Assembly (NCBI GenBank): GCA_051362555.1
Contig: CM120645.1
Location: 10,416,001 to 10,480,000, forward strand
Reading direction: 5' to 3'
Length of the DNA stretch: 64,000 bases
Source of the DNA: Lingula anatina
Taxonomy: Eukaryota > Animalia > Brachiopoda
The notes beneath the pieces are model-generated. The model had not been told where the DNA came from. It saw nothing but the letters and a program-made list of their open reading frames with translations, and ran no database searches. The translations under genes were made by a program, and so were the position numbers. Shown piece by piece: positions 20,088 to 48,800 of the stretch (position 1 is the first letter of the stretch; each line of letters begins with the position of its first letter).

Positions 20088-21379
20088 TCAACCGCGTCTT
20101 TTATGTTTAGGCACCGACTTAAAAAGTTCCCTCATCAAGTGGTTAGAAAACCGCCTCCCCCGGGGATCCAGCTGGTCCCGAACCTTCAGGAACTCTCGTG
20201 TACACTGACGGTTATTGGGATCGTTCAGCTTCTGGCGAAGTTCGGGGAAGAGCCCCGCCATCTTGGCCCAATGTGGCATTCCAGAGAGTCCGATTTGGTC
20301 CAGCTGAGAGTAAATCTGTGAATGACATTCAATTATCACGAGAAATAAACACATTCACTCATGAAACCAATTATGTCGTTTACCCTCTAGGTCGAATTCA
20401 TTCATCAACGGTCAATAATAAGGGGAGACAAAATTGATTAGTTGGCTGAAGAGAGTCAACTCTGTATGCAGGGTCTGTGGAGCATTTTTCTCTATAAAAA
20501 TACATGTAAAAAAAAAACAACTTATTTTACTAATGAAACACGAATAGATAACGCATAGATTGTTCAACAATAAGTTATCTGATTTGTTTAAGATTCGTAT
20601 CATATTATACACACCGACTGAACGAATTGTTTGAATCCTTCCAGAGCTTCCACTGGTTCACCAAGCCCGACTACCTCCAGTGCTAAGTAGCGGGAATCTC
20701 CTGGGACGCCGCAAGTGTCTGATCTACCGGGACAGAGAAAGCAGTCCGTCTCCTTAACCCAGCGCATTTCCACCAAACCTACAGGCAGGATACCCCTAGT
20801 AAAGGAAGCGCCCTCTATCGCCGACACCATTGCCTGCAACACCAAGGACAATATATTACAAATTAACGTTTATTTAATAAAATATATAGGTCTTCTTCGA
20901 TGACTGTGCAACGTGGATACGTATCATACATATCTTTGGTCGAACGCTACTGTTAAAACTGCACGTAAAGTACCCGGGTGCATATAGCCTTATAAGTGCA
21001 ATTTTTGTTTGTCTTCGTACATGTACGTTATTTAAACATCTAAGTCTGCTATTTTAATTTTTTTTATATTAAACGTTGGTTGTGAAGAATGGTTTACGCG
21101 GTAAAAGCGATAATATGAAGAATGGTATATAATATATATTGATCCATTTCCACAAACTTGAAGTGCCACTGTGTTGGTTGAGAATTCCTCGGTTTCTTTT
21201 ATGAAGGATGCCATGGTAACCATGGGAGGGAGGGCATGGGCGTCGACACCATGGATTGCGAAAGGCTTTGGGATCACAACGGGTTCTGAGATGGAGAGGT
21301 TGGTCGCAAGAAATTCAAACATTTGCTGGAAATAACGAGTTATATTTGCAAAGTTGACTGAATTATTTGACCCTTTCCA

Positions 21380-21444
<65 letters not shown>

Positions 21445-24400
21445 TTGTTATTGCTTCGTTGCCACAAGTTTTAATACTTTACCAAAAACAATAATTTCAC
21501 TGTGTTGCACTTCGTTGACCATCTATATACTAGTATTTTGCTAAATTTTACAAGATTTATAGTGCAGGTTTGCAAAAACGAAAGTGTATTGCAACTGAAC
21601 AGTTGAATAAATATGTAGCTTCAGATATTGCCACAGGAAGACTAATATTGAATAGAAATTGAGATAATAAACACACCTGTCCTGCTGATATAGGAGTCAC
21701 ACCGAGATTGGGAGTGACCTTGAAATCCAGGTCAAGGTCAGGCTCGGTTCCATTGACGTGGGCAATACTGAAAATATGAAAAGACAACACTGCAATCATA
21801 GCACAAACCATAGATAAACTATAGTGTTAGTAATTTATTTTTCCGGCCTTGATATGCACGGTGAAGTATGTATATCAACAAGAGAGTTGAAAACAGTGTG
21901 ACTTCATCATTGCAACAACTTTTTTATAAGAATTAAAAATACCACTGTTACATATTGTCTAAGAACGTTTGAGTTGGTACCGTCAGATTGGGATAATATT
22001 TGATAAAAGTTCACAAGAAATGCGAAATTTTCACGGTGATTTTTATCAAGCACAATGCCGCAATATCATTTCACCATGCACCCCTTCAAAGGGGCACACT
22101 CGTTAAAAGGGAATTGAAAATAATCGAAAACTTAAGCAGTATTCAAATATTTTTTGACGAAGCATTCCATGTTAACAGTTATTCTAATACTGATAAATTG
22201 CAAAACTCGCAAAACCGCAAGTTTTATTATATGCATATTTTCGCCGAAGAAGAAATGACATCCATACATTTACTAATGCATAGGGTATTATGTATTTATA
22301 TATACGGTACTCGCTAGTATCTTGTCAAATTTGAGGATATACAGCCTAGCACATACCTCAACCAAACGAGATCCTCTTCGATGTTCCAAGTGGTTGGCAC
22401 GCTTCCATTGGTGATCGTCTCTTGAACTTCCTCTTCCGTTAGAGAATTATATACTGCCCAACGAGCCTCGACGTAGTAATTCCGGGTTACGAGCTCCTTA
22501 ACAAACGTTGCATTTAGCATCTGGCTGAGCGGGACAAACGCCGTAAAAACTTTCATCATTTGAATTGGTTCCACCTAAACGTAGGATAGCCAGATGTTTT
22601 ATGTTAACAAAGTGATAATTGTTTGTGTATAAGTAGCTTAAATGATACTCATTTAGTACTTTTTGATTCCAATATTAATGTAAAATTGTGTAATGATTTT
22701 TTTCGTTTACAAATTGGTTTGCTAGGTTAAATTCGTGTTTATTATCATTATTTTTTTTTTTTGAGATTACACAGAGATGCGATTTTTCGTCGTGTACAAA
22801 TAATCGCCTCTAACCTTAATTTCTACTTCCACAATGACACCCAGTAACCCAAGATGGCATCTCAAGGCACGCAGAACGCTCGGGTTTTTAGAGGCCGAAA
22901 ACTGCCGGAGTCTACCGTAGGCATCAAACAGTTTTGCCGATTTCAGGTGGCCACCAATGCTAGGTTCATCATAGCTTCCACCCTACGGATAAGGTAACAG
23001 AATATGAAAAAAAAATAAATAAAATTACGCTGTTTTGAAATTAAAACAAGACAAACTGATGAGTTTATGATTCCAACTTTAACCTAAAATGTAAACTTAT
23101 TAGATTTGTGGTGCAGAATTACGATATTTCATATAATTGTTAGAAATATACGACATCACTGCTAATAAAGTCACATTTGGGTGGAGTTAGTTATGCAAAT
23201 TTTGGTCGCTGCGTGTACCAATTTCTCAATAGCCTCATATAAAGTTGGAGATAAACTCACGTGAGCGGCCGTTCCAAGTCCTCCAGCCATCGTGACCTGT
23301 ATAGGCCGCGGTCCCGTGACCAAAGTATGACCTACACTCAGGAGAAACGAGTCCAATTCACCCTGGCTGACTCCAGCTGCAACAGTCACAGTGGAGTATG
23401 GGGTATTCATGGTCTGAAACAAAACAGTTTGTTTGTATGCACCTTAATTTGTTTGGACGACTACGTTTCACCTTTTAACAAAACGGCTGAATGTATGATG
23501 TAAGTGTTGTACATTTACGACAAGATGAAATACATATATTTCACATTTAATTTCCTCAAAACACTCTAGATAAATAACCTGAACGGTCTGAGAAAGGTAA
23601 TAAAGTTTGAACTACAAGACATTTTACAATGAAAAGTTAACGCACCAATGGGTTAAATACGGCCCTCTGTCCGTTCTCTAGCGTCAGATTAGCCAGGTCC
23701 AGAAGAATCTGGCCGTTGTCAGGGAAAAGGTCTGACCAGGACAGTGCAGATGCACCCGCTACACGTATCCTTAAGTTCATTTGCATGGCCGCTTTTATAA
23801 CCTTCTTTACCTAAATTAAAATGAATTCAGTTCGTATTTTAACAGCACCATCAGCAATCTCGACCAACTGAAATGTGTGTAAGGAAAAATGTACATATAC
23901 AGACGACTGCCTTTTATAGAAAGATGATATTGGAATAGGCGCTCTCCTTTGCGATAGGTGGATAGATATAATACTAGTAAATAGATAGATAGATAGATAG
24001 ATAGATAAACACTTTGACATGTTCCTTTTCACCTCTTCGTTAGTAGTAGGTTTGATGACAAACACGTGGTCGCGTCTCACGATCTCCGCCCAGTTGACAA
24101 ACGGTTCCAGTCGGACTTGTGGCGCCGGTCCGATGGCTTCCTGCAGACATGCGCGCACTTTTTCCATATCCTTCACTGTGTTATCTGGGATAAAGTATAC
24201 AGAGAAATAAAGGTGTTTTTAAAGGGCTCTCGTTTATAGTATAATTCAAAAACGTACAGAAATTAACTTTTATATTTAGTATAATTCTGTTCGTTATAAT
24301 TATTATTATAATTATTATTATTATTATTATCATTATGTCAATGACAAAAATGTTATCGAATACATATAATCATTAGGGCAAAATATAAGTTGTATAACTT

Positions 24401-28289: not shown

Positions 28290-31200
28290 TTAACCAAAAA
28301 ATCCCGCAAATATATTTCCAGGTAAGATGCGTCGGAGGAAACGGTTAGAAAATCGCCATCCCAAAATGTCCATTTCAGCTCGTACTCGTAAGAATTCGCG
28401 TGTACACTGACGATTAGCGAGGTTATTTAGTTTGGATTTAAGCGAAGGAATTGATTCCGCCATCTTAGCCCAATGAGGCATCCCTTCCAGGCCTATCTGG
28501 TCAAGCTGAGTGAAGACCTGTGGAGAAAAAAAGTTCACCTTTAAAAAAGCATAAACAACGACCCCTAATTAAATGATATTTCTACTGATGTTTAAATCTT
28601 CTTTTCAAGTGTTTTAGCCCCCACTCAAAGTGGAGAAGAGTCATAAGGGCAATCAAAGAAAAGGTCCAGTTATAAATCGCCCTCTTTAAAGTGACATTTT
28701 GATAAGGTCAGAATGTACATGTATTTCTATGTTACTTTTTAATTTCAAAGACAGTTTTTTAAAAACGAAACTAATGTCTGTATTTGAGTTTGAAATTAAC
28801 AGTTTCGCCATCCTCATAAAGCGATCGGAAAGGTTTTTAACGCTTATGGAACGGTAAAAAAAAGAAAGAAAAAGAGAAGAAAAACTTACCGTGTTAGCAA
28901 ACACTTTGTACCCTTCAAACGCCTCGGTCGGTTGTACCAGTCCCTGTATCTCCATGGTCAGGTAGTGAGAGTCGCTGGGAAATCCACACACATCTGCCTT
29001 ACCAGGACAGAGAGTACAGTCCGTTCCCTTGATCCAGCGCATTTCTACAATCCCTAGTGGCAAGATGCCATTAGCGTAGGACGCGCCCTCTATTGAAGCG
29101 GCAACTACCTAAAACCAAAATATGTGAGTACCATTTAACTCCAGTGCTCTCTTTTTTATATATCTATATACATATTTCATCGAATGTCGTTCTTGTTACA
29201 GCATATACAAATTTGATAGCTAGATGGCGCGAAGCTGTGCTAACCATTTTACAAGAATTACAAAATATTATTGTATGCTGCTATCGCTCTCTCTCTCCCT
29301 CTCTGTCATTGCTCTTGTTGGTGTGTGTGGGGGAGTTAAAAATATAACACTGTAAAACTCCTATCTTCTTATTAAAAATGCTACAGCAAAAGACGTACAG
29401 GGTGAAGGCGACATCGAAGGTATTCCATGAACCCAGTATTGGGTACGCTGAAGAAACTGAAGAAGTCAATATTACAGCATACGCCATTTCCCCTGTATTA
29501 AACAGATTAAATCTTTTTTTTTTAATTCTGCCTTGGAGCTCCTCACCTGCAGCGCTGTCACCGTACTTAAGAACTGCGGCGTTTCTGGAATAGTATACTC
29601 CATTGCAGAGACAGGCGGTATGTTGGTCGCATTCAATGGGTGAATGGCGTACGGTTTTGGAAGGACGATAGGATCAGCAATAAAGCCTTCCGTTGCGAGG
29701 AAAGCAAATATATTCTGGAAAAAAATATTAGGAAAATGATATTTTGATTGAAATTCAGACATAATTTTATTGTGCTGTCTGTAGGAGGGTGTCTGTGCGT
29801 GCAAAAGAAAGTTGCGTATACTGATCTGTAACGCGTTTCCCATTTTAATCAATCAATTAGAGAAAAGTAACATGGGACGCAAATGACAATGTGCAATGCT
29901 TATAAATTGAAGTAAAAATTAAAACGAACAAAAATACCCTTTAATGATCTAGAAATAAATATAAGAATAACTGGCAAAGACGATGGAAGTAATACAAGAG
30001 ATTGTGTTCAAAGAAAGACAAAATTTTCTATAAAAAGATAAGCCGCAATAAATGTATGTATAGTTTCGTTTTCTTTCTCTTTTTGGCTTTGAATTTACAT
30101 TGGGTTTACTACTTACCTGCCCAAATGAAATCGAGGTCACATTCAAGTCATATGTCACATTGAAATCAAGGTCAAGGTCAGGAGCAGTTCCATTCGGATT
30201 GATAAAACTGAAAAAAAAAAATAATAAGAGAGTTGACTGTGAAAAAAAAACTCTCTGGTAATTAAATAAGTATAAATTTAATTACATTCAAACTTCTGAT
30301 CCATTGCGCATATTTTAATATCCTGGTTTACGGAAGAGGTACATGTAACGTATTGCTGAAAACTACAATAATTGTACCTTAAAGCTAGCCTGCTGCTGAA
30401 TATTCCGTTCACATAAATGTAAAAGCCCTGTAGTACATCGTGTAGATTTAAAATGCTTAGCGTATCAAATAAGGAAAGCCATACAAAGAAGCGAATATAA
30501 TGCATGAAAATAACGAGCAAAAAAAAAATTAATATTAACAAAAATCAGCCTCAAAATCTACGGGTACCTCAGCCACACAAGGTCCGCCGCACTGGTCCAC
30601 GAGGTCGGCACTTTCCCACTGGCGTTCGTCTGTTGGACCTCTTCCTCCGTCAAGGAATTGTACGTCGCCCAGCGTGCCTCCACGTAGTAATTACTTGTGA
30701 CAATTTGGTTAACAAAGGTAGCGTTAAGCATCTGAGCCAAGGGGACAAACGCCGTGAACATCGACACCATTTGAAGTGGTTCTACCTGTTAGTCAGCATA
30801 AGATGTAAAACGCTGTTAGAAATCTCAAGAAGAGTTGAAAATATGTCTAAGGATTATCAATTGCCACAATAAAGCAGCAAACGATGAGAGTATCAGATGC
30901 AAAGTTATAAGGACAATCCTTGTTGGGCTATATTCCTACTACATCAATTACTGGGGATCCGCGTTTCGCAACCAAAGAAAATTGCAATCACGGCGCATTT
31001 CGCAATCAAACAATTTTGAACAGAAAAACGTACCCTTTTCAACTTTAGTTCAACTCTTTACAAACCCTTCGTAACTAAACATTAATTTCACTGCAAAACA
31101 CGTCGTGTTTATACATTTTGTAAGGAGCAACTCAACACAACTTTGATACAAAAGCAGCATACAGTAAAACAAGACGTTTTGAAAGTAGATTTTCTCGAAA

Positions 31201-32600
31201 AGTCAGAAGAACAATTTCCACCAAGCCACCGCTAGATGTAGTGTTGTAGTTTCAGCATCCTTCGCTCAATCTACCACTAGAATATAACGAGAGAACCATC
31301 TTATAACTTACTACATTGTAAAAATTGGAGCAAGCCTCGCTCTGTATAGCAACTAGTCCTTACCTTCATTTCTACTTCGACAATGACACCCAGCAAACCC
31401 AGGTGGGAGCGCATGGCACGTAGGACGGCCGGGTTCGCGGAGGCCGTGAAGTACTTCTGTCTCCCGCGGGCGTCATACACCCTCACGGACTCTAGGTAGC
31501 CACCAATACTAGGCTCGGTATAGCTTCCTCCCTTTATTATACAGATGGATAATATTATGAGCACATGAGCGTTCTGTTTTTGTAGCGAGCACAATTTGAA
31601 AACAAATTGTAACCCTACACACAGGTCAGTAGTTTAACTTGACATTAGGAAAGGATAGAGATGATTATTTTCAATTTACATCTATTCAATAATTTTCAAG
31701 AAAAGGGTAGGGATTAAAACATTACTAACATGAGAGGCGGTTCCAATGGCCCCTGCAATAGTGACGCCTTTAGGTTGTGGTCCACTGGCCATTGCGTGAC
31801 CTAAATTCAGTAGAAACAAGTCCAGTTCGTCTTGCCTCACTCCACCAGCGACAGTCACTGTTGAATATGGTCTTTCGGCTGTCTGGTAAAACAAATGGGA
31901 ACATTACATGTATTACCACCATTGATGTAGGGCCTACTTTCTGTCTACCAGTACCATTAACTCTTTTTCAAAATTTAAAAGTGATAAACCATACTTTTAT
32001 GCTCACAACATTTTTTTTTTGTTTTTGTTTTATATGAATTACCCAACAAAATTAGGGATATTTCGATGATTTGGAAAGTAGGCGGCTTTTCATTAAATAA
32101 AAGATCAATAGAAATAAAATGGTGTGATCATCTAGGAGCTCTAAGTAAATGTAACTGACCGGAGGGTTGAAGATCGCCCGCTGTCCACCCTCCAGAGTGA
32201 GGAGAGCAAGGTCCAGAAGAATCTGTCCTTCATCCGGGAAGAGTTCCGACCATGAGAGAGCCGACGCACCAGCCACACGGATTTTGCGGTTGAAGCGTAT
32301 GGCCGCTCTGATAACCTTACGTACCTTTATTGTGAAAAATGGTAATTTTCTTTAGAATTTTTCTTTTTAGCATATTGAAAATTTCAAAAATTAATGAAAA
32401 GAAAACAATAATGATGATCACAGATAGAGAGAAAGAGAGAGAGAGTTTTACCTCTGCGTTTGTTGTAGGTTTTATGACAAGCACGTGATCCCGTCTAACA
32501 ATTGTCGCCCAGTTGATAAACGGTTCCAGTTGGACTTGAGGAGAGGACCCAAGGGCATTCTGCATGCATGTCTGTAATCTCTCTAAATTCGGCAGGCTGG
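28290..32600 (-). CDS. FAD-linked aldonolactone-oxidase-like paralog B; exons 32600-32452, 32324-32160, 31882-31730, 31531-31364, 30785-30568, 30207-30117, 29714-29547, 29108-28890, 28517-28290; first exon(s) uncertain
   Basis: Same intron positions and phases as paralog A; RVAGASALSWS, VEMRW and PHWAK present; no stops or frameshifts seen. Confidence 0.88.
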
Positions 32601-33365
32601 CTAGAATAAAGAAAGTATCTTTCGTGGACACATGTTTAGTTTTCACGCCAGCAGGAGGCTCTTAATAAAAAAATCAAACGTCAACATACAGCCCACCAAT
32701 ACCCGACGCCTCTTGCTTCTGCATCGTTGTATTGATATATCAGAAAAATACTTGATTTTTTGGCCCAAAGCTAAACAGAGTTAAAAGACAGACGGAGGCC
32801 CACTGCTAGTTATCCAAGATATAGGTAAGAAGTCACATTGCTGTCCACATTCTGTGACACCTACCCAGTTTAAGTCCTGGCCTGGAGGTGTTATTGTCAC
32901 GGCGTGAGGACTATACACTCGACCAGAAGGTTCGGCAACATAGTTATGCTTAATAATTATAAAATAACCATATGAGCTAAGGTAAATATTTTTACTAAAT
33001 ATTGATGGATAATGCACCCATCATTCGTTCCTTTTTTATACAAACTGAAGATTTCCCCACTATATTACATAGTTTATAATTTTGAAAAGCAATTTCATGT
33101 TCCCAAACTTTTTGGGGTCGAGTGTACACACAAGTATAGGTGATTCATATAAATTTACGCGCTGATAACTCTCTCTGCCTCCAAAATCGTGATGTCTGTA
33201 TTGGATTGCCTAAGGCAGCGTTTTCAACACCAATAGTGACGACAAGCGTGAACGAGAAATGATTCGTCTTTTGACAATGGGGAGGAAGTGTAAAGGGTAG
33301 CTATGTTTGTATTTGTAGTCGAAGTGCTTCAGCACCTTCAATCAGGACCGCAGATCAATTATATC

Positions 33366-33549
33366 AGGCCCGTAGCCAGAGGGTGTTCCGGGTTGGGGGG
33401 GGGGGGGGGGGCTCGAAAGAATTCCCCTTTTTGACGGGAAAAGGTCCCCTCTTGGTAAAATTTTATCTAGGTACATGAAATTTTTATGGTAAAAGGTCCA
33501 CTTTATCAGGAAAAGAACCCCCCTTTTGAAACTGCGGGCTACGGACATG
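33366..33549. mobile_element. Short MITE-like element
   Basis: Imperfect termini caggcccgtagcc ... ggctacggacatg around a G-run; no clear target-site duplication. Confidence 0.4.
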
Positions 33550-35319
33550 TATATGCATTTTTCTCCAGCGCGAAAGTCTCATCTTTGGTTTTTAGTTTTA
33601 TTTTACCGATGAAGATGACAGCAGAGATCAAGCATAGTTACAGCAAACCAAGCAATCAAGATCAGAGCAACTACACACAATGGACAATAGAAGTGTCACC
33701 CCCTGAATTGGAATAATCAAAGTAGGTAGATCTTGAGTAGTTATAATGCCTGGTCTACTTATAATGTGACTAATGAGTATACAACCGCATGGAATTGTAT
33801 TGTTGGTCTTTTTGTGAATTTTGATGTTTATAAAATGATACCAGGAGCATATCATTCCACAGTCATTTATCTCCCCCGAATTATTGGTTCAGTAGGGGTG
33901 ACACTTCTAACGTCCAGTGTGTCTACAGTAACTGTCTTGATTGCTGTCAGTTGGACTAGGCAGGGACTTGTCAGGTGGCAGGGCCTGAGTATAGTTATGC
34001 CAACAATTACCAACCCCGAATAATTACCTGTGAGACTTCAGAACAGGGTTGCAGTGGAGGTTTGTGTCGTAAATTAGGCAGAGACATATACCCGTTAAAT
34101 TAAGTGAAAATTCAATCTGTGACCCTGGTAAACGGTAGTGCTGCAGAGATGCATGTATGTCAGTATGTATGACGGTATATGTATATGCGGAGACTGTTCA
34201 CCAATATCGGTGAAAGCTATATATTTTAAAAGATGCTGTTGCTTCATTTGTATTTGTGAAATTTTGCAATAGGCATACTGAGTGCAACAGACGTGATTAA
34301 CTGGTGCATATTTATAAGTGCACTATACACATGTACATGTAGATATTGACGAAAACATGAAAAATGAGAAAATCTAACAACTGACATTTTAGACAAAATT
34401 AAATGCTGTAGAGTGAAGGCAATCGAACTTATAAATGAACTGATGAATGGATAAATAAATGGATTTACCTTAAAGTCCTAGACAAGGAGGAAAAGGGAAT
34501 TTAGAAAAGACACCACTTTCCTGAGCCCAATTTTCTAACGTTATGTAACTACCTATATGTGCATATGCATGGAAATTTGAAAAGTTTCAAGTGACAAATG
34601 GTCTGCATATGAGCTCTACCTAGAATTAAATCGGTTAATTTTGTCAAAGACAAATGTGGCCCACATTCCTGCATTGTATTCCCCAGTAAACACTGCTCAC
34701 CCTATACTCACCGGGAAAAAACCCAATCCACCAGCACGATATAGCAAACGTAGCTCCTCCAAAGAACATGGCATCAATCTTCAATATGTATCTTCAATGC
34801 TAATGGTACCTGTACTGCGGGAAACAGCTATTATATCCTAGGTCATGTGACATGAAGGTGTGAGAGACCCCGAGGGAATCGGACGTTGTCTCTATAAATC
34901 ATACCGTCAGTAGATGCGTTTGATGGTAAACTTAATCTTGGTATTTAAATTATAATATAATTTAAATCATTTTTATTTATTTATATATTTATTATTATTT
35001 TTTTAAGTCCTGTACGCCAAACGCATTTTGAATCCATATGTTAAGGCGTAGCATGTCATTTATCTATAACAGCAGAAGGAGCCAACCTTGAAAGAAGTTT
35101 TATTCTCTATTCTAAACTTTGATATACTGAGCGTGGACACGCACCGTATAACGTCATGCGCCCCACCAGTCATGCTACCAGGTACCCGTCACGATTTCGT
35201 GGAAAGGGGGTGTGACAGGTTTGCTGATTTATTTTGTTTATCGCACTGCTAAAAAGACAGCTTGTACGGCTGGAGGGGGAATGGTATGTTTTACTGTCTT
35301 ACGCACAATTCTTCCTTTG

Positions 35320-35548
35320 AATAGACTTGTGAAGATTCTTTTGTCTATAGCTATTTATATTAGTTTGATCTTACCATCCAATATTTCATCTGCTTGCAGT
35401 CAGATTTCATCAGGGAATGAGGTTGTGACAGGTATGACAACCTGTCACCCCTCTGGTGTGAAATCTGACTGCAAGCAGATGAAATATTGGATGGTAAGAT
35501 CAAACTAATATAAATAGCTATAGACAAAAGAATCTTCACAAGTCTATT
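35320..35548. repeat. Perfect ~90-bp inverted repeat (hairpin / MITE-like)
   Basis: 35320-35409 is the reverse complement of 35459-35548; the spacer has an inner stem gtgacaggt...acctgtcac. Confidence 0.9.
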
Positions 35549-36404
35549 ATAATAACATAGCTAATGAAACTGTTCCTTTGAATATTTTCAAAATAGCATG
35601 ACAGACCAATTTTACCATTTCTGTAATCATTGAAATAAATTCTGATCATCTTCGGATGGTTTTGTTTGATTTAAAATGTCCAAATGAGACCTTTTGGTGA
35701 CATCGGGTCTATAATACATTGTAGCTTTTAAAAACAGACACTGCTTAGCAAAGAAAAAAAATTAATTTAACCACAGTGTATATCCCAGCTAAGCAACTGT
35801 TGAAAATGGCAACTGCTCGGAGTAAGCGGTACAGCACCACCCAAGACCACGACAGGCCTCCTTTGTCACATTTTTGTTTACGTTGACTGCATTCGCCAAC
35901 CAGATCCATACTTTGCCAAAAATCTGTGATGTTATTTACCCCAACGATCGATAATTATATGCGAGATCAAAAGAATTGTTGTTGTTTTTTTTTTTTTTGA
36001 GCAATTGCAGGGTTTCAACGCGCCGAGTTTATCCAAAAGCTTCAGAGGAGCTCGGAGAACTCGCAGCTCTGTCTTTGACATGTATCTTGCGGGGCAGAGA
36101 CTGAAGAGAGGCGAGTCTCCAGCATCTTCTGAAACTTTAGGTAGGAATGGCAGAAACATCAAGCCATTTTGAACAAACCGAACACATTGTTTTCTTCTGT
36201 GATTTAATTCCATTCGTTTGCTTAATAAAAGCATCTTTCAATTAAGCAACGTACATCTTTACATAAGAAATAATAATCATTTTATTACACAACGCTGTCG
36301 ACGAAGTTTAGGTGTGGATTATCATCAAAGAAATCGCACGAACTTTCGGTTCCCTGATATATACATGCTCCATTGAACTTACAGTTGCCGAACAATTACC
36401 CAAA

Positions 36405-39400
36405 TCAATTGTAAATATACATATAAGAGGAGTCGATGAATATCGTTCTCAGGAAGTTGTTAGAAAACATATATCCTTGAGGGTCTATTTGGTCGCGGAC
36501 TTTGAGGAACTCCAATTGACACTGGCGGTTTTCAGGGTCATGTAATCGCTGTCGAAGACCCGGGAAAGTGGTCAGCATCTTAGCCCAGTTAGGAAGACCA
36601 GAAAGTCCCACCTGGTTAAGCTGAGAGAGCACCTGCGATTAAATAGTTTAAACGCGTCTTTATTATGCACTACATATACGAAATCAACTGCAATGTTTGG
36701 AGGCTTAATTATTTGTGCCTCTTTGCATTTGCTCTTTTGGTACCGAAATAACAAGTTTTATGTATGTAGCTACTCTCTACCACAGGGATTTTATAACTGT
36801 TTCAAATTTGTATATCAGATCTTATACAATTAAAACATAACCATTATGAAATAAATCAAAGGAATAAAGCCATCTATCCTGCACTGTTCATTCCTCTTTT
36901 AACTCTAAATCAAAGACAATATGAAGGTACGTAGGTACAATATAATAGGTGCGCTTTGAGTACTGACTGGGTTATCTGACATTTTTAACACATGGCGGAT
37001 GATAACGCAATACATACGGCGGTAGTAAATTGCTTATAGCCTTCAAACGCCTCAGTCGGTTGTACCAGACCCTGTATTTCCATGGTCAGGTAGTGAGAGT
37101 CGCTGGGAAATCCACACACATCTTCCTTACCAGGACAGAGAAAACAGTCTGTGCCTTTGATCCAGCGCATTTCTACGATCCCTAGAGGCAGGATGCCATT
37201 GGCGTAGGAAGCGCCCTCTATTGAAGCGGCAACTACCTAAAACCAAAAAGTTTGGAAATTTCCTTATGCATGAATCACAGGCATCGACTTAATGGTACAT
37301 ACATGTACATATTGAGTATTTCAGCGCAAAACGACTTGAGAAGTTCCTTGGTAGAGATTTTGTTTACAGCATTTAGGGTCTCCCAAATATACTGTGTTGG
37401 ATGTGCTGAAACACGACTACCACTCATTGTGTTAGATATGCCAATATGTTAGAAGCAAGTTGTTTTCCACGTTTGACAAAGTGTGTTTTGTATATTTGAG
37501 TATGGACGTGGTCTATATCTGACATATTACACATAGCATCACATTTAAAACATGACCATTGCGTACAATACACATGGGCAACATATAAGCATATAATATT
37601 CAAAAGTCGTCCAACTCTCAGGTTGTATTTATTTCCAATGTTTTAAAATATAAAAGTGTGCCAAATAAATGTTTCCAATAAAGTTACTTGTCTGGTTTAC
37701 GCCGTCGAGACCACTTTGAAAATTATAAAAAACTATAACAAATGACAATTATTCAACAAAAGCTGAGCACTATCTTCCAACCGTTAGCTTGGTATACATG
37801 TATATGGGCGTAGGCCTGTAGGAAGCCGATGTTCAGCTGGTGTTGAATAGTTGTTTTCTGTAATGCTATTACCAAGCTAATGGACATATTTGCTTATAAA
37901 TAAGTATCTACCCACTTGGTTCTCCCTGCCTGCCCCTTCCTAGATATGTAAACGTATTAAAACTTAGAAATCGTGTGAGATTCCGTCGTTTGGTTGAACT
38001 CAATTCACTCCAGCTTTCCCATACATACACGCACCGCCGCCTCCCACGGTTAGATGGAAACTTACCAACTGCTTTCACAATAATTGCATCAATTTCTAAA
38101 ACTAAAAGATAATTTATTAACTGTACGAACCTGAAAGGCTGATACCGTACTTGTGAAAGAAGGGTTTTCTCTGATGGTTGTTTCCGTGGCAGTCACGGTT
38201 GGAATGGCGCTAGCATTCAGGCCGTGAATGGCGAAAGGCTTTGGGACAACAACTGGATTAGCGATAAATCTTCTAGTCGCGAGGGCAGCAAATATGCGCT
38301 GGAAATAAAAATATGGTTTGAAAAAAGTAACTCGACAAATTGAAATGTGCATCTACTTCATTTGTAATTATGCACTTGCAAGCTTTTTTCAAAGGTACCT
38401 TTTAAGATTTGACGAATAGGGCACACTATACGACATATTTTCAGAATTAGGTTATTATATCATAATATCTTCAATTGAGCAATTTATCAACTTATAGAAT
38501 ATCTTCGGTCTTAAGACATACAGTTTATGCTAACATCACACTAATACATGGACCTACCGTTAGAATTATTTACTACAAATCGGATAAACTTTTATCGCCT
38601 TCCTAAAAGGGCGCTCTCTTACCTTCAGTGCTCGTTTTTTGTCCACTTTTAGGTAAAGGGTGGGGGTGAGAAACGTTTCAAAAAGAAGACGAATTGGCCA
38701 CTATATAGGCTATACTACAGTGTAGTACGGTTTTACCAGAGTACTTTTGATGTGAAGAAAACATCTACAATTGAAAGATCGTTGTCGGAACAGACATTTC
38801 TATCGCTTCATAACTTGCAGCTCACCTGCCCGAATGAAATAGGTGTCACATTCAGGTCAAAGTTTACGTCAAAGTCAAGGTCAAGGTCAGGCTCCGTTCC
38901 ATTCGGATTGATAAAACTATCAATAATAAAGAACACGTAAGAATGAACAAATATGTTCACTTTACTGTTAAATCTTATTTTTCACAAGTATAAGGAAAAA
39001 GTTAAACGGAATACACAATTACTAGTATTAAAGAAAAATGTTCATTCTTAACAGTAAAATCACTAACAGATAAACAAGGTAGTGCATTTTGATGGTTATC
39101 ATCCAAAGGTATAAAAGTGTTCCTTTAATGTTTACCTCAGCCACACGAGATCTCGTTTACTGTTCCACGTGGTGGGTACCCTTCCAGTGGCCATAGTCTC
39201 TTGGACTTCCTCTTCCGTTAAGGAATTGTAAGTCGCCCAGCGTGCCTCCACGTAGAAATTGCGCGTTACAATTTCCTTAACAAAAGTGGCATTGAGCATA
39301 AGACTGAGGGGGACGAATACCGTGAAGAGTGACACCATTTGGACTGGTTCCACCTAGCGGACATAAAGAGAATATTTTAAAGTTATTACATGACGAATTA

Positions 39401-39501
39401 ACTGTATACAATGGAGACAAAACATAACAAAACCTTCAACGGTCAGGGGAATCCGAATACAATGAGTATTATAATGATATGTAGGCTTACTCGCTACTAG
39501 T

Positions 39502-39544
<43 letters not shown>

Positions 39545-41024
39545 CCAACACCTGATTGATCTGTTGAAGTTTTAAAGATACATGCACGTTTTTACCATCA
39601 TTTCTACTTCGACAATGACCCCAAGGAGACCAAGATGACATCGCATGGCGCGCAGGACATTCCGATTCTCAGAAGCCGTAAATTGTCGAAGTCTCCCGTA
39701 AGAATCGAAGACTTGTACGGACTCGAGGTAGCCACCCAGACTTGGTTCGTCATAGCTTCCTCCCTACAAACATCACTGTGAATATAATGTCGTGTATTCG
39801 TGCAATACAAACATATATTGCTAAGGTTTGAAAAGTTTACATGCAACAAACCAAGCGAGAAGGAAGAGTGTTTAATTTTTTTACCGCAAACCTAAAATTT
39901 TTTAGGTAGAAACTTTCCGGTAGTATACAGAGCAAGCAGAAACCTTACTATTTTGTCATTTATATTCTATATTTAGGCGATGTGCATGCAGACACAGTAA
40001 GAGGATTTTGCTTACGTGAGAAGCTGTTCCAATTCCTCCTGCTATAGTGACCTCTATCGGCTGCGGCCCACTGGCGATTGCATGACCTACGCTAAGTAGA
40101 AACGAGTCCAGCTCGTCCTGTCGCACTCCAGCCGCAACGGTCACTGTGGGATATGGTCTCTGAACTGTCTGTAAAAAAGACCTATAAGTATGCAGTCGCC
40201 TTCAAACAATTGTCCTCTTTTTGGTTTCACACCGGCATCTTATTTCTAAATCGTAAAATACATATATTACAATTATTTAAGTACACAAGTCTATTTAGCG
40301 CTTTGACAAATATATGCCTTGTTTAAATAAAAGAAAAACAATATTGTAATCAAATGTTTTAATAATACATGTGCCATTGTTACAAGAACTGCATATTAGT
40401 AATGATTTTAATTGGGTAAAAATACTGTATGTAAACTACCAGTATTAAAGTAAATGGATATAAAATATGACGCACCGGAGGGTTGAAGATCGTCCGCTGT
40501 CCACCCTCCAGAGTGAGGAGAGTGAGGTTCAGTAGGATCTGTCCTTCATCTGGGAAGAGTGGCGACCAAGAAAGAGCCGACACGCCAGCCACACGGATTT
40601 TGCGGTTTAAACTTACGGCGGTATGTATCACTTTTTGCACCTGCAATGAATTTATTTATCGTCTTTTGACACTTCAGTAAATTTATGAATAATCAATTAG
40701 GAAAGTAGGCCTAAGTATAGGGAGATTTATGGAAAGAGTATACGTATGTTACGGTTCTGTCCTGTGCCTCAATCCAAATTCGGTCCCTTGGTTCTAAATT
40801 GTTTCCAAGAGACTCTGTTCTGGTCCTACACATGTGAATGCCCATGTAGAGAGGAGGCTAGCAAGACTCACTTACTTCGGCATTACTTGTAGGTTTTATG
40901 ACAAACACGTGGTCCCGTCTAACAATTGTCGCCCAGTTGACAAACGGTTCCAGTTGGACTTTGGGAGAGGACCCAAGGGCATCCTGCATGCATGTCTGTA
41001 ACCTCTCTAAGTTTGTCAGGGTGG
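36405..41024 (-). CDS. FAD-linked aldonolactone-oxidase-like paralog C; exons 41024-40876, 40640-40476, 40168-40016, 39763-39596, 39353-39136, 38916-38826, 38298-38131, 37236-37018, 36632-36405; first exon(s) not found
   Basis: Same exon architecture as A and B, frames intact; RVAGVSALSWS and VEMRW present, but PNWAK replaces PHWAK. Confidence 0.86.
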
Positions 41025-43254: not shown

Positions 43255-43335
43255 AAGTCAAAGGAAACAGAAATATTATACTTACGAGGACATTTAAGTC
43301 AAAGGAAACAGAAATATTATACTTACGAGGACATA
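43255..43335. repeat. Direct ~40-bp tandem duplication
   Basis: aagtcaaaggaaacagaaatattatacttacgaggacat occurs twice in succession. Confidence 0.85.
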
Positions 43336-45864
43336 GTGACCACCAAAAGCAGGTCCAGCTGACAAGGAATTGTTGTCCGAAATACATCCCCTTATTATAT
43401 CAGTTAACCTCAAAAACAACACAAATTAAAAGATATTTTTTTAAGTCAGAAAACAAAGATGGATAAGATGGATCCTCGATGATGCGCGACTCCTGTAATT
43501 CACGAGCACTTTTTCTGGCTGCATATCTTTAGGAGGTCACCATTAAGACCGCTCTCTGTTTAACATTTTTGACCACGGAATCCCCGCTACCCAGCCAACT
43601 GAACTCTAAACGACCATATTAGGGGATTACAGGTTAAATGTCAACTCTCCACAGAATATACAGCTATTAAACAGGTATTAACGACGGGAAATCAAGAGAG
43701 ATGAATCACACTACTAAAGTGGCTCCCCGTGGCGATGGTGGTTTCAAATCCACACCTTGGGGCTATTTATTAGGCCTATCTGTTTTATGTATGTTTGATA
43801 TCGGCCGTTATTTGTTGCTGTGCATGGCACAATGCACCGGTTCAAATGTGCATTTCATATGCCAGTACAATGTATAGACAGTATAGTCTCACAAAAGCGA
43901 TCACGACCTAAGGACAACATGTAGGCCTAATAAATCACCACTGTCATAATCTGATCATTTCTCTATTAAAGCAAGCTTTTCATTTGTTGTAGGCTTTTTA
44001 GCCTATGTTTACTCTTGTTTTATATCTATTTTTATCTTTTAAACTCTTTTTGTGATTCATAGGCTTCAAAAATGGCGTTGTGGGGGGGGGGGATGTCTTT
44101 CAATTACGACTCATTTGCTTAGCTATAGGCTTATAGTTGAATAAGTTGCAAACAAAATTATGGGTATTAGTGAATAAAATTAATTCACACCCCACAAGAT
44201 TAACCCACAACTTCTACTTACCATAGTAAGCCACATTACTAGAAGTGATACAGGCAATTTAGTTTTTCTCGCAGAAATTAGTATAAAATAATTTTTTATT
44301 CAAACCGGTTTTTATGATGGCCTTTGTCTGTGGGACGTTTAGAAATGAATAATTTACAAATACATAAAAATTGATTAAAACGTTTGTGACAGCTAGCAAA
44401 ATAAGATCAATATCAATTTCAGTGAAGTATTTCACACCAAATATATTTTCCAGGAGTCTCCTGGCCGGATGAATCTCCCGCGGTCTCCCGTAGGCCTACG
44501 TGTAACCAAATCTCCCAGACACGTACGTAAGTTAAAGCAATATACAAGACAAATTAATTTGCACTAATGTCAGTTTCATAATTTTTTTCTTGGGGGGAGA
44601 GAGGAGAGAAGGGTCAATCACCCCCCCCCCCCCCCCCCCCGTGAGCAGAACGGCAGCGACCATTCCACCCCCCCCCCCTCCCCCCACTGAGCAAAATTTT
44701 GGATTCTTCAGATTTTAGATTTCCAGAGGTTGGCATCTCTGCTAACGTTGTAACTTTACATCTATGGTCTGGAGAAACAAAATCGTTTCAAGGTTGACAA
44801 ATGCAGACGCACTGATAAAATAAAATTGTTATACAAGTTGTGGCAAACAAACGACAAACTGGACAAACTAACTGAGCCTGTCTTGTAACCTCTGAAGGTA
44901 ATCGTCACATCGAGGCCAAGATGCGGGAAGCGACATTCCCTGACCCACGAGTACAGGATGTCGACGACGTGTTTTCTCCAACAGTTATTGTTGTATTTTA
45001 TGCACAAGCTATAAAAAGAGAAATTAGTCGAGTGTAGAGGTTGCAGGTCGCTGCACAGGAGTGATTATACAAAAACAGCACCCAAATTTGCTCTGATGGT
45101 GAAGCCAGCTTTGCATGTTCTTTCATTATCCATTCTGCGTTGTAAAGCTCTCCGACAGTAGGCTACCTTACTAATCTTTTCTCTTGTTATAGATATACGT
45201 TCGGAAACAAGCCTGCGTTTTAGGACAAGGTCATTTAGCGACACTTTTTGTTAAACGTTGCACACTAACTTGATTATTAACCTTCACACTGGCTTCCCTT
45301 TGATACTGATCTCTTTTGAAGCCAAGCCAAAGGAAGTCGCCGTCGTGTCGTTGCGCTAGCATGTGAAAGTAGCTAGCAACCCAGTGACCGTGATTTGCAG
45401 TCTAGACATCGTCTTACTCAGTAACAGGTAGGTAGTTTGTTTGTGGTGTAGTTCAGCACATACTGATTTCATACTCAATATAACATATTATATACATGTA
45501 CTTGTGTACATCACTACTGTGTTAACTACTGTGGTAGTTAATGAAAACAAAAAGATGTTTTTTATTGCAATTCATCTGTACAGTTTGTTGATAATGATCG
45601 TACATTGAAAGTTTTTTTGGGGGGGTTTCATAGTTTCACATGCATTAAATCTAACCCTTAGAAATGTGTACAAACGCACACACACTTACAATTAATTGAA
45701 TGTAGACAAATAAATGATATGCACTGAAATATTTTTGGGACCATGTTTTTGTTTGAAAGATATTTATGTATGTGTAGACTATGAGTCCCATGATTCAAGT
45801 ATCAAGATATTTTCATGTCAATGACTTAATTATTTCAACTGCAGCAACTGCATAGCCAATCAAA

Positions 45865-48800
45865 ATGGACATGATGTACGACACATTCGATGACATGGAG
45901 GGTGACGGCTATGACGTGATGTACCCTGACGACATGGCTGACATGGAGGCCTGGATGGCGGAGCACGGAGAGGATTACTTTGACACCCAGGCAGAGCAGC
46001 TGGCCACCCGCGCCCCTCTGTGGGAGTACCTGCCCAGCTGTGGCTCAGAGACGCTGATGCAGACCCTGGTTTATGTTTATCCTCTGCTGGGACTGTGCTT
46101 TCTCTTTAATATGTGCTGTCGCCTACAGCAGACTTCAAGGAATGGTGAAAATGGTGAGTTTTGAAATGGTTTAAAGTTGTATATAATCATAAGGGAGGAA
46201 TATGCATTGTTGTGAGTAAGCCCTTGTTTAAGACTGATTTTGATTTGTGATTTAAAAACCTCATAGATAAGGTTCGAGTAATTTAACCCTACCTGATCTT
46301 GATATTCTGGAACCATAGAAGTAAGGTAACCTTTTTACATGTATTCCCTGGTAGATCATCAACTTTTATATGATGGAAATACACTGTAGGACCAATGGCA
46401 GTCAATAATACTTCTGGTATTAAATTAGTATTAAATCCAGACCAAAAACCAAACAGAATTTGAAATTAAAGTTCTTAATTCATTTCAGCAGAGGAGGAGG
46501 TCACCATCCCCAGAGAAGTTGCTCACATGACATCAGTCCTGACAGGAATGGTGGCCTGCCATATCTTCTTCCAGAGTCTGTTCCTCTACCTAGTGCTACT
46601 GCTGCTGCTCACATATACACTACTGCTGCTGGTGCACAGGGTGTCCCCAGGGTATTGTGGACTGGTGGTGTCCACTGTCACTGTAATGTATATCATATCA
46701 TGGTATGTGTACTGTTATATGGACTGTGACTGCAGTATATGTATTTAAGGGATGTGTAATGTGACTGAAATGTGGTTGGAATGCATGTATGAAGTTTTGC
46801 TGTCCAGCAAAGACTTTCATCAGTTGTGTTATGCACTCAAAGTTACAGTAAATTATAGTTTCTTTAAAGACCTGCTAAACTGAGATATTGCACTGAAATA
46901 TAAGGGTGTCAATAATACTGAGTTTTGCTGTTGTTTGAAGAATCTATTGTTTTAAACTTTTATATGCAGGAGTATAGATTGCCCAAGCTTTATCAGTAAT
47001 CTGAATGGCAGAGCTACATTTTGATGAAGTCCTTACAGCATATGAAAACCTTTAGCTTATTGCTGTAGCATTTTGTAAGGCAAGCTCTCAAAGTTACTTG
47101 GTTGTTGACATCTTTTGCATAAGATTTTAATATTTAATGAACAATTCTCTTTAAAAACAAAATCATCTTACATGTGTCAGTACAGTTGAATCAATTAACT
47201 TAAAGATTGACATTTTGAATTATATTGTAGATCTATGAACTTTTAAACATAATGTTTTTTCTTGATGTTTTAGTGAATTGTTTTTAGTTGAAACTGAGAA
47301 GTGGCATAAAATCAGAGGTTTGCAGAATTTGAATGCTTTTTGATATGTTGATTAATGTTTATAAAATGTTATGATAATTACATACTAGCTAATTATGCAT
47401 TTTGTCTTGTAACTGTTACATTAAATAAATTTTTCTATTTGAAACAATTATTTTATGATAATTTGACCATTTCTTATTTAAATTCCTTTTATTCATCAAT
47501 TATTATAATTGATAATTGAATTTTATACAGGTGCTCAAATGGTGCTATCCATGAAGATAATCTCGGTGGCCTTTGATGTGGACACTGGTCACCTGGGAGT
47601 GCCCAGGGTGTGGGAGTTTGCTGGCTACTGCCTCCATGTGGGAACTGTGATATTTGGACCATGGGTGCCCTATAAACAGTATAATGCTCTGTTCTTGAAA
47701 CAGGAGGAAGGGAGAGGAGTATGTTTGTTGATTTAGCTATTCTTTAATTTATTTTAATTGAAAAAAAAAATTCTTTATTAATCATGAATGGTGTGCAGTT
47801 TTTGTGATGTTAATTTATTGTACCACCAGCGTTAGCGCTGCGGTACACATGGTTTCGGTCCCGTCCGGATCGTTCCGCCGGCTCCGCCGGCTCCGTTGGC
47901 TCCGCCGGCTCCGCCGGACGGCTACCGTTACCGCTTCTCCTCCTAGACGGTAAGGGCCCCCGTACCCATCTCATGGATTTAGGTCACCTATAATCTCAAT
48001 TCGTTCCACGTAAAATTTGGGCTTTGTCGGTATTGGGGTCTGGGTGTGGCACTCATTGCAATGCACCCTTGTCTAAAAATGGCAAAATTAAATGCTAATT
48101 ATCTACCCTACGGAAGGAGTTATGGGAAAAATTTCTATAGACGGCTTTCCAAAAGTCATATGTGTAGATTTCAAATATACCCTTGGATTTGACCTTTGAC
48201 CTTTACTCCAAGGTCAAATGGGCCAAAATTTTCAAAAAAATGAAATTTTTTACGAAAAAAAATTTTTTTGCCCTGTTATTCAGACACCACACAGACTTAA
48301 CCAATAATATTATTGGAAGGTGTTACCCTTCAGGTCATCTTTCATCTCCATGAATTTGGGGTCAATCGGTGCATTTTCACGGGAGTAGCGGCCATAAGAT
48401 ACCGAAACTGAAAACTGTCTCTAATTCGGGAACCGTTAATGCTAGAGACCCATTCTTTTTTGCATTTTGTAGAGCATGTAAAGCCCAACACTGGAGGTGG
48501 TCTCGGTTTTTTTGTATTCCATACGGTTTTCGAGTTACGCTGTATCAAAAAGTACATATTGGTGGTAAAAGCAAAATGTGCAGTACGGTAATGGATAATA
48601 AATTTTGAACTCTGGAAAAATAAAACATAAGGCTTGGCAAAGCAGACAACTTGTGTTCAAAAATGACATTATTTCATCAAATTTGAACTTCTGAAACTTC
48701 AGAGCACCTCCTATTTCAAGAATTTTGACCAAAATGACATTTTCTTTATTTTAATTAATTTTTTCTGTACGAAATTTAAGGCACATTATGGTAACTCCAA

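What the first reader, a model, noticed from the sequence alone, without database searches (positions are those of the whole stretch)
20088..41024. Tandem cluster of three apparently secreted, non-covalent-FAD aldonolactone-oxidase-like genes in an animal
Seen: three intact paralogs share intron positions, the FAD_binding_4 core and the ALO-type C-terminus. The FAD loop reads RVAG(A/V)SALSWS, with Leu where animal GULO and fungal ALO have the covalent-FAD His (GGGHS), and the substrate motif is VEMRW. Established: plant L-galactonolactone dehydrogenase (GLDH) has Leu at that position (GSGLSP, non-covalent FAD) and ExRW (IEQRW), whereas GULO has ExRF and is ER-membrane bound. Seen: signal peptide in A; NAT and NGT sequons and conserved Cys in all three. 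Inference: this is not the ordinary vitamin C GULO but a distinct, expanded family of extracellular sugar-lactone/carbohydrate oxidases, possibly horizontally acquired and then intronised, perhaps making H2O2 or ascorbate analogues in mucus, gut or defence secretions.
Basis: partly seen in the sequence, partly recalled or inferred. Interest (0 to 1): 0.85.

Follow-up and report, generated by a model that had tools for sequence, protein, structure and literature searches.

The report
Brachiopod trio of secretory flavin oxidases
Three intact, side-by-side genes in the brachiopod Lingula encode flavin enzymes that resemble the vitamin C enzyme GULO but are not it; they belong to a family also found in snails and an annelid that likely works outside the cell and is predicted to make hydrogen peroxide from a sugar-like substrate.

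Summary
Three intact minus-strand paralogs (A, B, C; 63-76% identical; shared intron phases; dN/dS 0.12-0.20) encode VAO-fold FAD enzymes in Lingula anatina. RNA reads confirm 9 of 9 tested introns of A and join its signal-peptide-like exon to the body (205 reads). A is expressed in 1 of 4 runs. They are not GULO: they score 68-83 bits against a 397-bit cut-off, and Lingula has a separate GULO. They sit in a lophotrochozoan clade (about 9 Lingula genes, Owenia, Littorina, Bulinus) for which my searches found no paper; it lies next to a bivalve group and nests among uncharacterised microbial proteins. Corrections: Leu at the covalent-FAD site is a secondary loss (10 of 13 other members keep His), not a GLDH trait; introns appear shared with gastropod-like members, so any gene transfer is ancient and unproven; signal peptides of B and C are doubtful; sequon counts are at chance level; C has NWAK for HWAK. 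Best reading: secretory-pathway oxidases (Pro oxygen gate, Glu-Arg-Lys triad) that oxidise a carbohydrate-type hydroxyl and release H2O2; probably not aldonolactone-specific. Substrate untested.

The parts
26936..27005 (-). Gene A exon 1: ATG plus hydrophobic signal-peptide-like segment (23 codons, phase-1 donor)
   Evidence: Kyte-Doolittle 3.55 over 10 aa; 205 reads leave exon 2 with a consensus matching this exon at 28 of 30 letters; same model in XP_013418302
24639..24758 (-). Gene A exon 2: basic, low-confidence linker (possible propeptide); no counterpart in B or C models
   Evidence: RNA joint to exon 3, 175 reads; pLDDT 47-65 over residues 21-60; propeptide role inferred
20088..24184 (-). 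Gene A body, 9 exons: 24184-24033, 23810-23646 (FAD loop), 23413-23261 (oxygen gate), 22982-22815, 22574-22357, 21767-21677, 21325-21158, 20833-20615 (VEMRW, CxxC), 20315-20088 (HWAK, stop)
   Evidence: all joints seen in run X1, 147-396 reads each
24971..26611 (.). Foldback-type element with long inverted arms inside intron 1 of gene A
   Evidence: arms of 416 nt (100%) and 269 nt (94%)
34712..34769 (-). Gene B exon 1: ATG plus short aromatic, weakly hydrophobic segment, phase-1 donor
   Evidence: same start in XP_013418303; not tested with reads
28290..32600 (-). Gene B body, 9 exons: 32600-32452, 32324-32160, 31882-31730, 31531-31364, 30785-30568, 30207-30117, 29714-29547, 29108-28890, 28517-28290
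   Evidence: 4 differences in 518 aa from XP_013418303
43327..43387 (-). Candidate gene C exon 1, similar to B exon 1; its donor lies in a 41-nt tandem duplication
   Evidence: in-frame phase-1 join to 41024; inferred, not tested with reads
36405..41024 (-). Gene C body, 9 exons: 41024-40876, 40640-40476, 40168-40016, 39763-39596, 39353-39136, 38916-38826, 38298-38131, 37236-37018, 36632-36405; NWAK in place of HWAK
   Evidence: 8 differences in 507 aa from XP_013402569

Best explanation
These are three tandem duplicates, under purifying selection, of a lophotrochozoan family of VAO-fold flavoenzymes that likely enter the secretory pathway and are predicted to hold FAD non-covalently, oxidise a hydroxyl group on a carbohydrate-type substrate and pass the electrons to O2, releasing H2O2 outside the cell or in a lumen. 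Shown: gene structures; expression and splicing of A, including its signal-peptide-like exon; the fold; the Glu412-x-Arg414 and Lys481 triad (B numbering) matching GalDH Glu386/Arg388/Lys456; Pro159 at the GalDH Ala113 oxygen gate; Leu92 at the covalent-FAD site; separation from GULO/ALO. Inferred: Arg/Lys stabilise the substrate alkoxide and C-H hydride goes to flavin N5, as published for GalDH; Pro leaves the route to C4a open for O2; FAD is non-covalent; the substrate is probably not a vitamin C lactone, because Cys340/Gln344 are lost and Gly413/Asn363 is replaced by Glu443, a residue shared with the uncharacterised microbial and bivalve relatives. The role (antimicrobial peroxide, or peroxide for cross-linking a secreted matrix) is a guess that fits sample-restricted expression. 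C, with His->Asn in HWxK, may be impaired.
For: Exon models and open frames; dN/dS 0.12-0.20; RNA joints and signal-exon join; AlphaFold models pLDDT 89; top folds GalDH Z 37.9, alditol oxidase Z 36.3, cholesterol oxidase Z 32.6; residue map from PMC11099136 Table S4 (55) placed by alignments; Gly/Pro oxidase rule as cited in PMC3962183; Pro at the gate in 13 of 16 family genes versus 0 of 13 outer-clade rows shown; hydrophobic N-termini or type II anchors in most family members, absent in the two named bivalve proteins scored; family one clade 100/99 (88).
Against: No activity data for any member. Covalent FAD and oxidase activity usually go together in fungi and animals (PMC11099136), and the trio has lost the His and gained a residue in the loop. 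B and C lack a clear signal peptide (hydropathy 1.7), and a Cys in that segment recurs 19 residues before a conserved Cys in several paralogs, which would suit a retained helix rather than a cleaved peptide. SignalP was not available. Sequons are at chance level. Gate and pocket residues were placed by sequence alignment, not by superposed coordinates. Most other family members lack the Glu of ExR (76), so the family may not share one substrate. The tissue behind run X1 is unknown.
Confidence: 0.55

Rival explanations
1. They are extra aldonolactone oxidases making ascorbate or an analogue (for example erythorbate from gluconolactone) in the secretory pathway.
For: GalDH is the closest solved structure and sequence; Glu-Arg-Lys triad and HWAK kept in A and B (76); non-covalent oxidases exist among protozoan aldonolactone enzymes (PMC11505616); RefSeq names A 'L-gulonolactone oxidase-like'.
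Against: Only 5 of 12 GalDH active-site positions match in B; Cys340, Gln344 and Gly413/Asn363 differ. Scores are far below the TIGR01678/01676/01677 cut-offs. Lingula has a separate GULO, XP_013393535. An AU test rejects grouping with the one TIGR01678 member available (p 0.0009).
Confidence: 0.13
2. They oxidise a sterol or other lipid alcohol, like class II cholesterol oxidase.
For: Cholesterol oxidase aligns over the longest span, including the N-terminal helix (438-445 residues, model 20-529); Atlas structure rows with the cholesterol-oxidase substrate domain have TM 0.77; weak Chol_subst-bind Pfam hits in 3 outer-clade relatives; several family members are membrane-anchored. A similar Glu-x-Arg...Lys site in cholesterol oxidase is recalled, not from a call.
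Against: Z is lower than for GalDH and alditol oxidase (32.6 vs 37.9 and 36.3); profile scores rank cholesterol oxidase below them (62, 105); no Chol_subst-bind hit for A, B or C (24, 85).
Confidence: 0.15
3. They are poorly O2-reactive dehydrogenases or partly inactive flavin- or sugar-binding proteins; C in particular may be catalytically dead.
For: Loss of the covalent His plus a loop insertion; C has NWAK, and His loss in HWxK abolished flavin binding in T. cruzi GALO (PMC11505616); a database version of C carries two further Val->Glu changes in the FAD loop.
Against: Pro at the oxygen gate in all three; catalytic Glu, Arg and Lys kept; purifying selection in all three pairs; an extracellular enzyme has no obvious cytochrome c partner (inference).
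Confidence: 0.15
4. Origin: a microbial gene was transferred into the Lingula or brachiopod lineage and then gained introns.
For: The wider clade holds an actinomycete MAG protein and many unnamed metagenomic proteins; no named cnidarian, ecdysozoan or deuterostome member among the 20 top relatives I could name.
Against: Members occur in gastropods and an annelid, with a bivalve sister group (99/99); gastropod-like fragments start or end at the same exon borders; the best non-animal hit is about 30% identical; an ascomycete member exists (P0011), so vertical descent with losses is open; 130 of the 150 listed hits could not be named.
Confidence: 0.04

Closest known systems
[quoted passage not shown]
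   Same: VAO fold (Z 37.9, rmsd 2.5 A over 418 residues), Leu at the covalent-FAD site, ExRW, HWAK lysine
   Different: About 20% identity; Pro instead of Ala at the oxygen gate; Cys340, Gln344 and Gly413 not kept; loop one residue longer; secretory rather than mitochondrial targeting; no GLDHase model hit; the Leu arose separately
Animal L-gulonolactone oxidase (GULO) and fungal ALO (TIGR01678)
   Same: FAD_binding_4 plus ALO-type C-terminus; Glu-Arg-Lys triad; HWAK in A and B; oxidase-type gate
   Different: 68-83 bits against a cut-off of 397; no covalent His; Asn363 replaced by Glu; signal-peptide-like exon; Lingula has its own GULO elsewhere
Alditol oxidase AldO (PDB 2VFR-2VFU, 8OT8)
   Same: Fold (Z 35-36); oxidises a polyol hydroxyl with O2; best single-sequence PDB hits
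   Different: 18-21% identity; AldO has covalent His-FAD and is about 100 residues shorter
Class II cholesterol oxidase (PDB 1I19, 3JS8)
   Same: Fold including the N-terminal helix; similar length; extracellular H2O2-producing oxidase (recalled)
   Different: 15-19% identity; covalent His-FAD; lower Z and profile scores; no Chol_subst-bind domain hit in the trio
Uncharacterised bivalve, fungal and bacterial ALO-like proteins (Mytilus XP_071128649, Potamilus, Bathelium, actinomycete MAG L001)
   Same: Nearest relatives in the tree; share the HSW-type loop context, ExR and the Glu at the Gly413/Asn363 position
   Different: Keep His; mostly Val, Thr or Ile at the gate; the two named bivalve proteins scored lack a hydrophobic N-terminus; no CxxC

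Membership tests
VAO/PCMH flavoprotein family | FAD_binding_4 domain | tested here: met
   A 37.7, B 38.6, C 27.8 bits vs cut-off 26.4 (database versions)
VAO/PCMH flavoprotein family | Two-domain VAO fold | tested here: met
   Model of B, pLDDT 89; Z 28-38 to VAO-family structures
Aldonolactone oxidoreductases (broad) | C-terminal HWxK motif | tested here: inconclusive
   HWAK in A and B; NWAK in C
Aldonolactone oxidoreductases (broad) | Catalytic Glu-x-Arg and Lys | tested here: met
   Glu412, Arg414, Lys481 in B align with vGalDH Glu386, Arg388, Lys456
Aldonolactone oxidoreductases (broad) | Lactone-binding Cys340 and Gln344, and Gly or Asn at position 413 | tested here: not met
   No Cys or Gln at these places and Glu at 413 in all three; placed by sequence alignment
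Aldonolactone oxidoreductases (broad) | Oxidises an aldonolactone at C2 | not testable with these tools
   needs an enzyme assay
GULO / ALO (TIGR01678) | Score above the curated cut-off of 396.8 bits | tested here: not met
   A 82.7, B 71.9, C 68.0 bits
GULO / ALO (TIGR01678) | His for 8-alpha-N1 covalent FAD | tested here: not met
   Leu in all three
GULO / ALO (TIGR01678) | Groups with GULO/ALO in a tree | tested here: not met
   AU p 0.0009 against family + P0134; P0134 is a stand-in above the TIGR01678 cut-off; no animal GULO sequence was in the tree
GLDH (TIGR01676) | Score above the cut-off of 458 bits | tested here: not met
   No hit for B at E<=1 or for A and C at E<=1e-10
GLDH (TIGR01676) | Ala at the oxygen gate (dehydrogenase) | tested here: not met
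   Pro in all three
GLDH (TIGR01676) | Leu at the FAD site (non-covalent flavin) | tested here: met
   Leu92, but in a loop one residue longer and nested in a His-bearing clade
Plant GULLO (TIGR01677) and bacterial FAD oxidoreductase (TIGR01679) | Scores above cut-offs of 383 and 292 bits | tested here: not met
   43-50 and 72-82 bits
Class II cholesterol oxidase | Chol_subst-bind domain (PF09129) | tested here: not met
   No hit for B at E<=1 or A and C at E<=0.01
Secreted proteins | Cleaved signal peptide | tested here: inconclusive
   A: hydrophobic first exon spliced to the body; B and C weak; no SignalP or proteomics

The most novel reading that the evidence does not exclude
Lophotrochozoans carry an undescribed, ancient family of extracellular flavin oxidases, derived from an uncharacterised microbial-type dehydrogenase by gaining secretory targeting, a CxxC disulfide and an oxygen-admitting Pro. 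It is a hidden source of H2O2 for defence or matrix cross-linking in brachiopods, snails and tube-dwelling annelids. The Lingula trio is a natural experiment: oxidase chemistry without the covalent flavin bond, lost at least twice in the family.
Probability: 0.3. Interest if true: 0.7.

Novelty: new variant of a known kind. Interest (0 to 1): 0.45.

Why it matters
If the predicted chemistry holds, many marine invertebrates have an unrecognised extracellular H2O2-producing enzyme family; one survey of animal ROS-generating enzymes had no hit for the GULO or VAO terms I searched. The family is auto-named 'GULO-like' or 'L-galactonolactone dehydrogenase, mitochondrial' in RefSeq, and A and B carry the HWAK motif proposed as a quick marker for GULO, so they can mislead maps of vitamin C synthesis. 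For flavin enzymology, close paralogs with and without the covalent His, and with and without the HWxK His, allow a direct test of how covalent flavinylation relates to oxygen reactivity, and may yield new carbohydrate oxidases.

Tried and rejected
No whole genome was held, so family size comes from database records of another assembly. Single exons gave only weak Pfam hits. The word-based search with the family profile found only Lingula A, B, a C fragment and one metagenomic protein, missing known members, so it says nothing on range. Locus scans with alignments could not run; a single-protein scan gave 2 close actinomycete MAG loci of 80 kept, and the neighbours of L001 (aminotransferase III, P450, ATP-grasp CoA ligase, DUF6350) gave no substrate clue. 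Plasmid search: 147 records, the 15 listed at 24-28% identity, ordinary bacterial ALO-type. No RNA holder was listed by word index; the raw-read lay supplied the evidence. No further copies outside the three genes in the window by tblastn. A 64-read loose end inside exon 5 of A matches nothing in the window; unexplained. Rejected: sequon enrichment as evidence of secretion; Leu as a GLDH inheritance; recent gene transfer. Literature searches and the supplement of the Lingula genome paper (70) found no description of the family; subscription papers and bioRxiv supplements were not searchable. Earlier scan findings: none.
Full report
Observation. The region holds three minus-strand paralogs. Splicing by coordinates gives A (11 exons, 583 aa, stop at 20088) and the 9-exon bodies of B and C (518 aa each), with AG/GT ends, the same intron phases and no stops. 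Identities are A/B 63%, A/C 65%, B/C 76%. A simple codon count gives dN/dS of 0.12, 0.12 and 0.20, with dS near saturation for the pairs with A. An exon of B matched a Lingula anatina record exactly. The database versions of A, B and C (XP_013418302, XP_013418303, XP_013402569) differ from the window by 8 of 583, 4 of 518 and 8 of 507 aligned residues, so the window is another haplotype or assembly. B's first exon is 34769-34712. A similar exon at 43387-43327 joins C in frame and is my candidate, untested.

Expression. Four RNA runs under the same species label were laid on the stretch holding exons 2-11 of A. Run X1 gave 4774 reads of 12.4 million records, on the expected strand. All 9 of 9 introns were joined (147-396 reads each); 8 read cleanly as GT-AG and the ninth is shifted by allelic letters next to the joint. 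Expression is thus sample-restricted; tissue is unknown, and divergence between populations under one label cannot be excluded.

What the proteins are. The database versions pass Pfam FAD_binding_4; ALO passes only for A. AlphaFold models of B and A have mean pLDDT 89. B's model matches GalDH (Z 37.9), alditol oxidase (36.3), class II cholesterol oxidase (32.6) and DprE1 (30.4), all at 14-21% identity. Against curated models, A, B and C score 68-83 bits for TIGR01678 (cut-off 397), 72-82 for TIGR01679 (292), 43-50 for TIGR01677 (383) and have no GLDHase hit at the thresholds used. Lingula has a separate GULO, XP_013393535, in the supplementary alignment of PMC6582580; its loop reads with His (read by eye).

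Relatives. A full HMMER search with B found 11 proteins at E<=1e-30. I could name the clusters of 20 top hits: more Lingula genes (P0015-18, P0020 and P0025 probably halves of one, P0021; about 9 genes with the trio), Littorina, Bulinus, five Owenia proteins, bivalves (Mytilus, Sinanodonta, Potamilus) and three unnamed records. The other 130 listed hits stayed unnamed. Three trees (FastTree 141 rows; IQ-TREE 64 rows; IQ-TREE with bootstrap 37 rows; fragments, near-duplicates and very long proteins left out) all recover the Lingula-gastropod-Owenia family (100/99). The IQ-TREE runs place it beside the bivalve group plus one unnamed protein (99/99); FastTree left that unresolved. All lie in a wider clade with an ascomycete protein, an actinomycete MAG protein and unnamed proteins, apart from ALO- and TIGR01679-type proteins (100/100). 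An AU test rejects joining the family to P0134, the only TIGR01678 member on hand (p 0.0009). No animal GULO or GLDH sequence was in these trees; that is a real gap.

FAD attachment. The trio has Leu at the His site and one extra residue in the loop. Of 16 family genes whose models include the loop, 10 keep His, that is 10 of 13 outside the trio; all 13 outer-clade rows shown also keep it. The other three losses (Lingula P0021, Owenia P0023 and P0026) group together (90) and carry type II anchors (P0026 through its longer isoform P0166). So the His was lost at least twice, and the likeness to GLDH at this site is convergent. One unnamed fragment closest to B also has Leu (P0079).

Active site. 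Using Table S4 of PMC11099136 and alignments to vGalDH: Glu386/Arg388/Lys456 are Glu412/Arg414/Lys481 in B. That paper proposes that Arg and Lys stabilise the substrate alkoxide for hydride transfer to N5. The oxygen gate Ala113 is Pro159. PMC3962183 states, citing Leferink 2009, that almost all VAO-fold oxidases have Gly or Pro there. Pro is found in 13 of 16 family genes and in 0 of 13 outer-clade rows shown (2 have Gly). Cys340 and Gln344 are not kept, and Gly413/Asn363 is Glu443, as in most outer-clade proteins. B matches 5 of the 12 GalDH positions. C has Asn for the HWxK His, whose loss abolished flavin binding in T. cruzi GALO (PMC11505616). These placements rest on sequence alignment.

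Targeting. A has a strong hydrophobic N-terminus (3.55 over 10 residues) followed by a basic, low-confidence linker. Eight other family proteins score 2.2 or more at the N-terminus, three have type II anchors, and B, P0018, P0025 and P0098 score 1.7-1.9; C's candidate is as weak as B's. The two named bivalve proteins scored fall below 0.8, though two unnamed outer-clade proteins score above 3. A CxxC motif is typical of the family. Sequon counts are at chance level (p 0.09-0.22). Secretory targeting is therefore well supported for A and for the family, and doubtful for B and C.

Origin. Two unnamed fragments closest to the Littorina protein match exactly the span of the trio's exon 7 (B 232-303), and three more end at 303, one of them starting at the border 176. 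This indirect sign suggests introns older than the brachiopod-mollusc split, although similarity also falls after 303. The best non-animal hit is about 30% identical. A recent transfer is unlikely; an ancient one is open but not shown.

Mechanism and verdict. Most likely (0.55) these are secretory-pathway flavin oxidases that oxidise a carbohydrate-type hydroxyl and release H2O2. Rivals: sterol or lipid alcohol oxidase (0.15), dehydrogenase or partly dead enzyme (0.15), aldonolactone oxidase (0.13). They work like aldonolactone and alditol oxidases but fail membership of GULO/ALO, GLDH and GULLO. The finding is real and the family seems undescribed, but it is a variant of a well-known enzyme kind, has no measured activity, and the two most striking claims (GLDH-like ancestry, gene transfer) weaken on testing. 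Interest 0.45.

Papers seen. PMC11099136: parts 1-3 of 6 of the text, a supplement term search and part 3 of supplement 1. PMC6582580: passages and supplement hits. PMC3962183, PMC11505616, PMC9602106, PMC4396506, PMC10295696, PMC9524095: passages only. PMC4595640: supplement term search only, no hits. 'Not in print' rests on searches of the open library; subscription papers and unsearched supplements may describe the family. Recalled, from no call: the catalytic residues and extracellular location of cholesterol oxidase, and the names porcupine, cathepsin L, TMBIM4 and histamine receptor for neighbouring genes.

Noticed in passing
window 24971-26611: Foldback-type element in intron 1 of gene A with inverted arms of about 685 nt (416 nt at 100%, 269 nt at 94%); its edge draws reads in all four RNA runs, so it is probably a dispersed repeat.
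   Followed up: partly
window 35320-35548: Small element with perfect 90-nt inverted arms and a 49-nt spacer between genes B and C.
   Followed up: no
window 23356 (gene A exon 5): 64 reads in run X1 leave the exon midway into sequence not found in the window; a chimera, an allele with an insertion, or another locus.
   Followed up: partly
window 43255-43334: 41-nt perfect tandem duplication that contains two copies of the donor site of C's candidate first exon.
   Followed up: partly
window 36405-41024 and database records: RefSeq has gene C split into two fragments on the scaffold of A and B (XP_013418266, XP_013418282) and whole on a small scaffold (XP_013402569), where the FAD loop has two Val->Glu changes.
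   Followed up: partly
database record XP_013379361 (P0015): A Lingula family member is named 'L-galactono-1,4-lactone dehydrogenase, mitochondrial' but scores 47 bits against the 458-bit GLDHase cut-off and has a hydrophobic N-terminus: a likely misannotation.
   Followed up: yes
database records P0029, P0033, P0174 (bivalves): Bivalves, reported to lack GULO (PMC6582580), carry a sister group with HLAK for HWAK, His at the FAD site and no signal peptide; function unknown.
   Followed up: partly
window 15889-18820, +: Papain-family cysteine protease with I29 propeptide (cathepsin L-like), next to tRNA-Pro(TGG) at 19398-19469.
   Followed up: partly
window 8250-11700, -: Bax inhibitor-1 family gene (PF01027; TMBIM4-like by recall).
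   Followed up: partly
window 4608-6111, +: Two-exon gene for a type II membrane protein with DUF1647.
   Followed up: partly
window 45860-53817, +: Multi-exon membrane acyltransferase, porcupine-like by recall (one 34-aa exon gave no Pfam hit); an intron holds a 146-nt tandem repeat of 10.8 copies at 48816-50386.
   Followed up: partly
window 57444-58943, -: Rhodopsin-family GPCR exon with a long third intracellular loop (histamine H1-like by recall).
   Followed up: partly
L001 1-5401: The actinomycete MAG relative lies downstream of an aminotransferase class III and a cytochrome P450 gene, possibly a small biosynthetic cluster.
   Followed up: no
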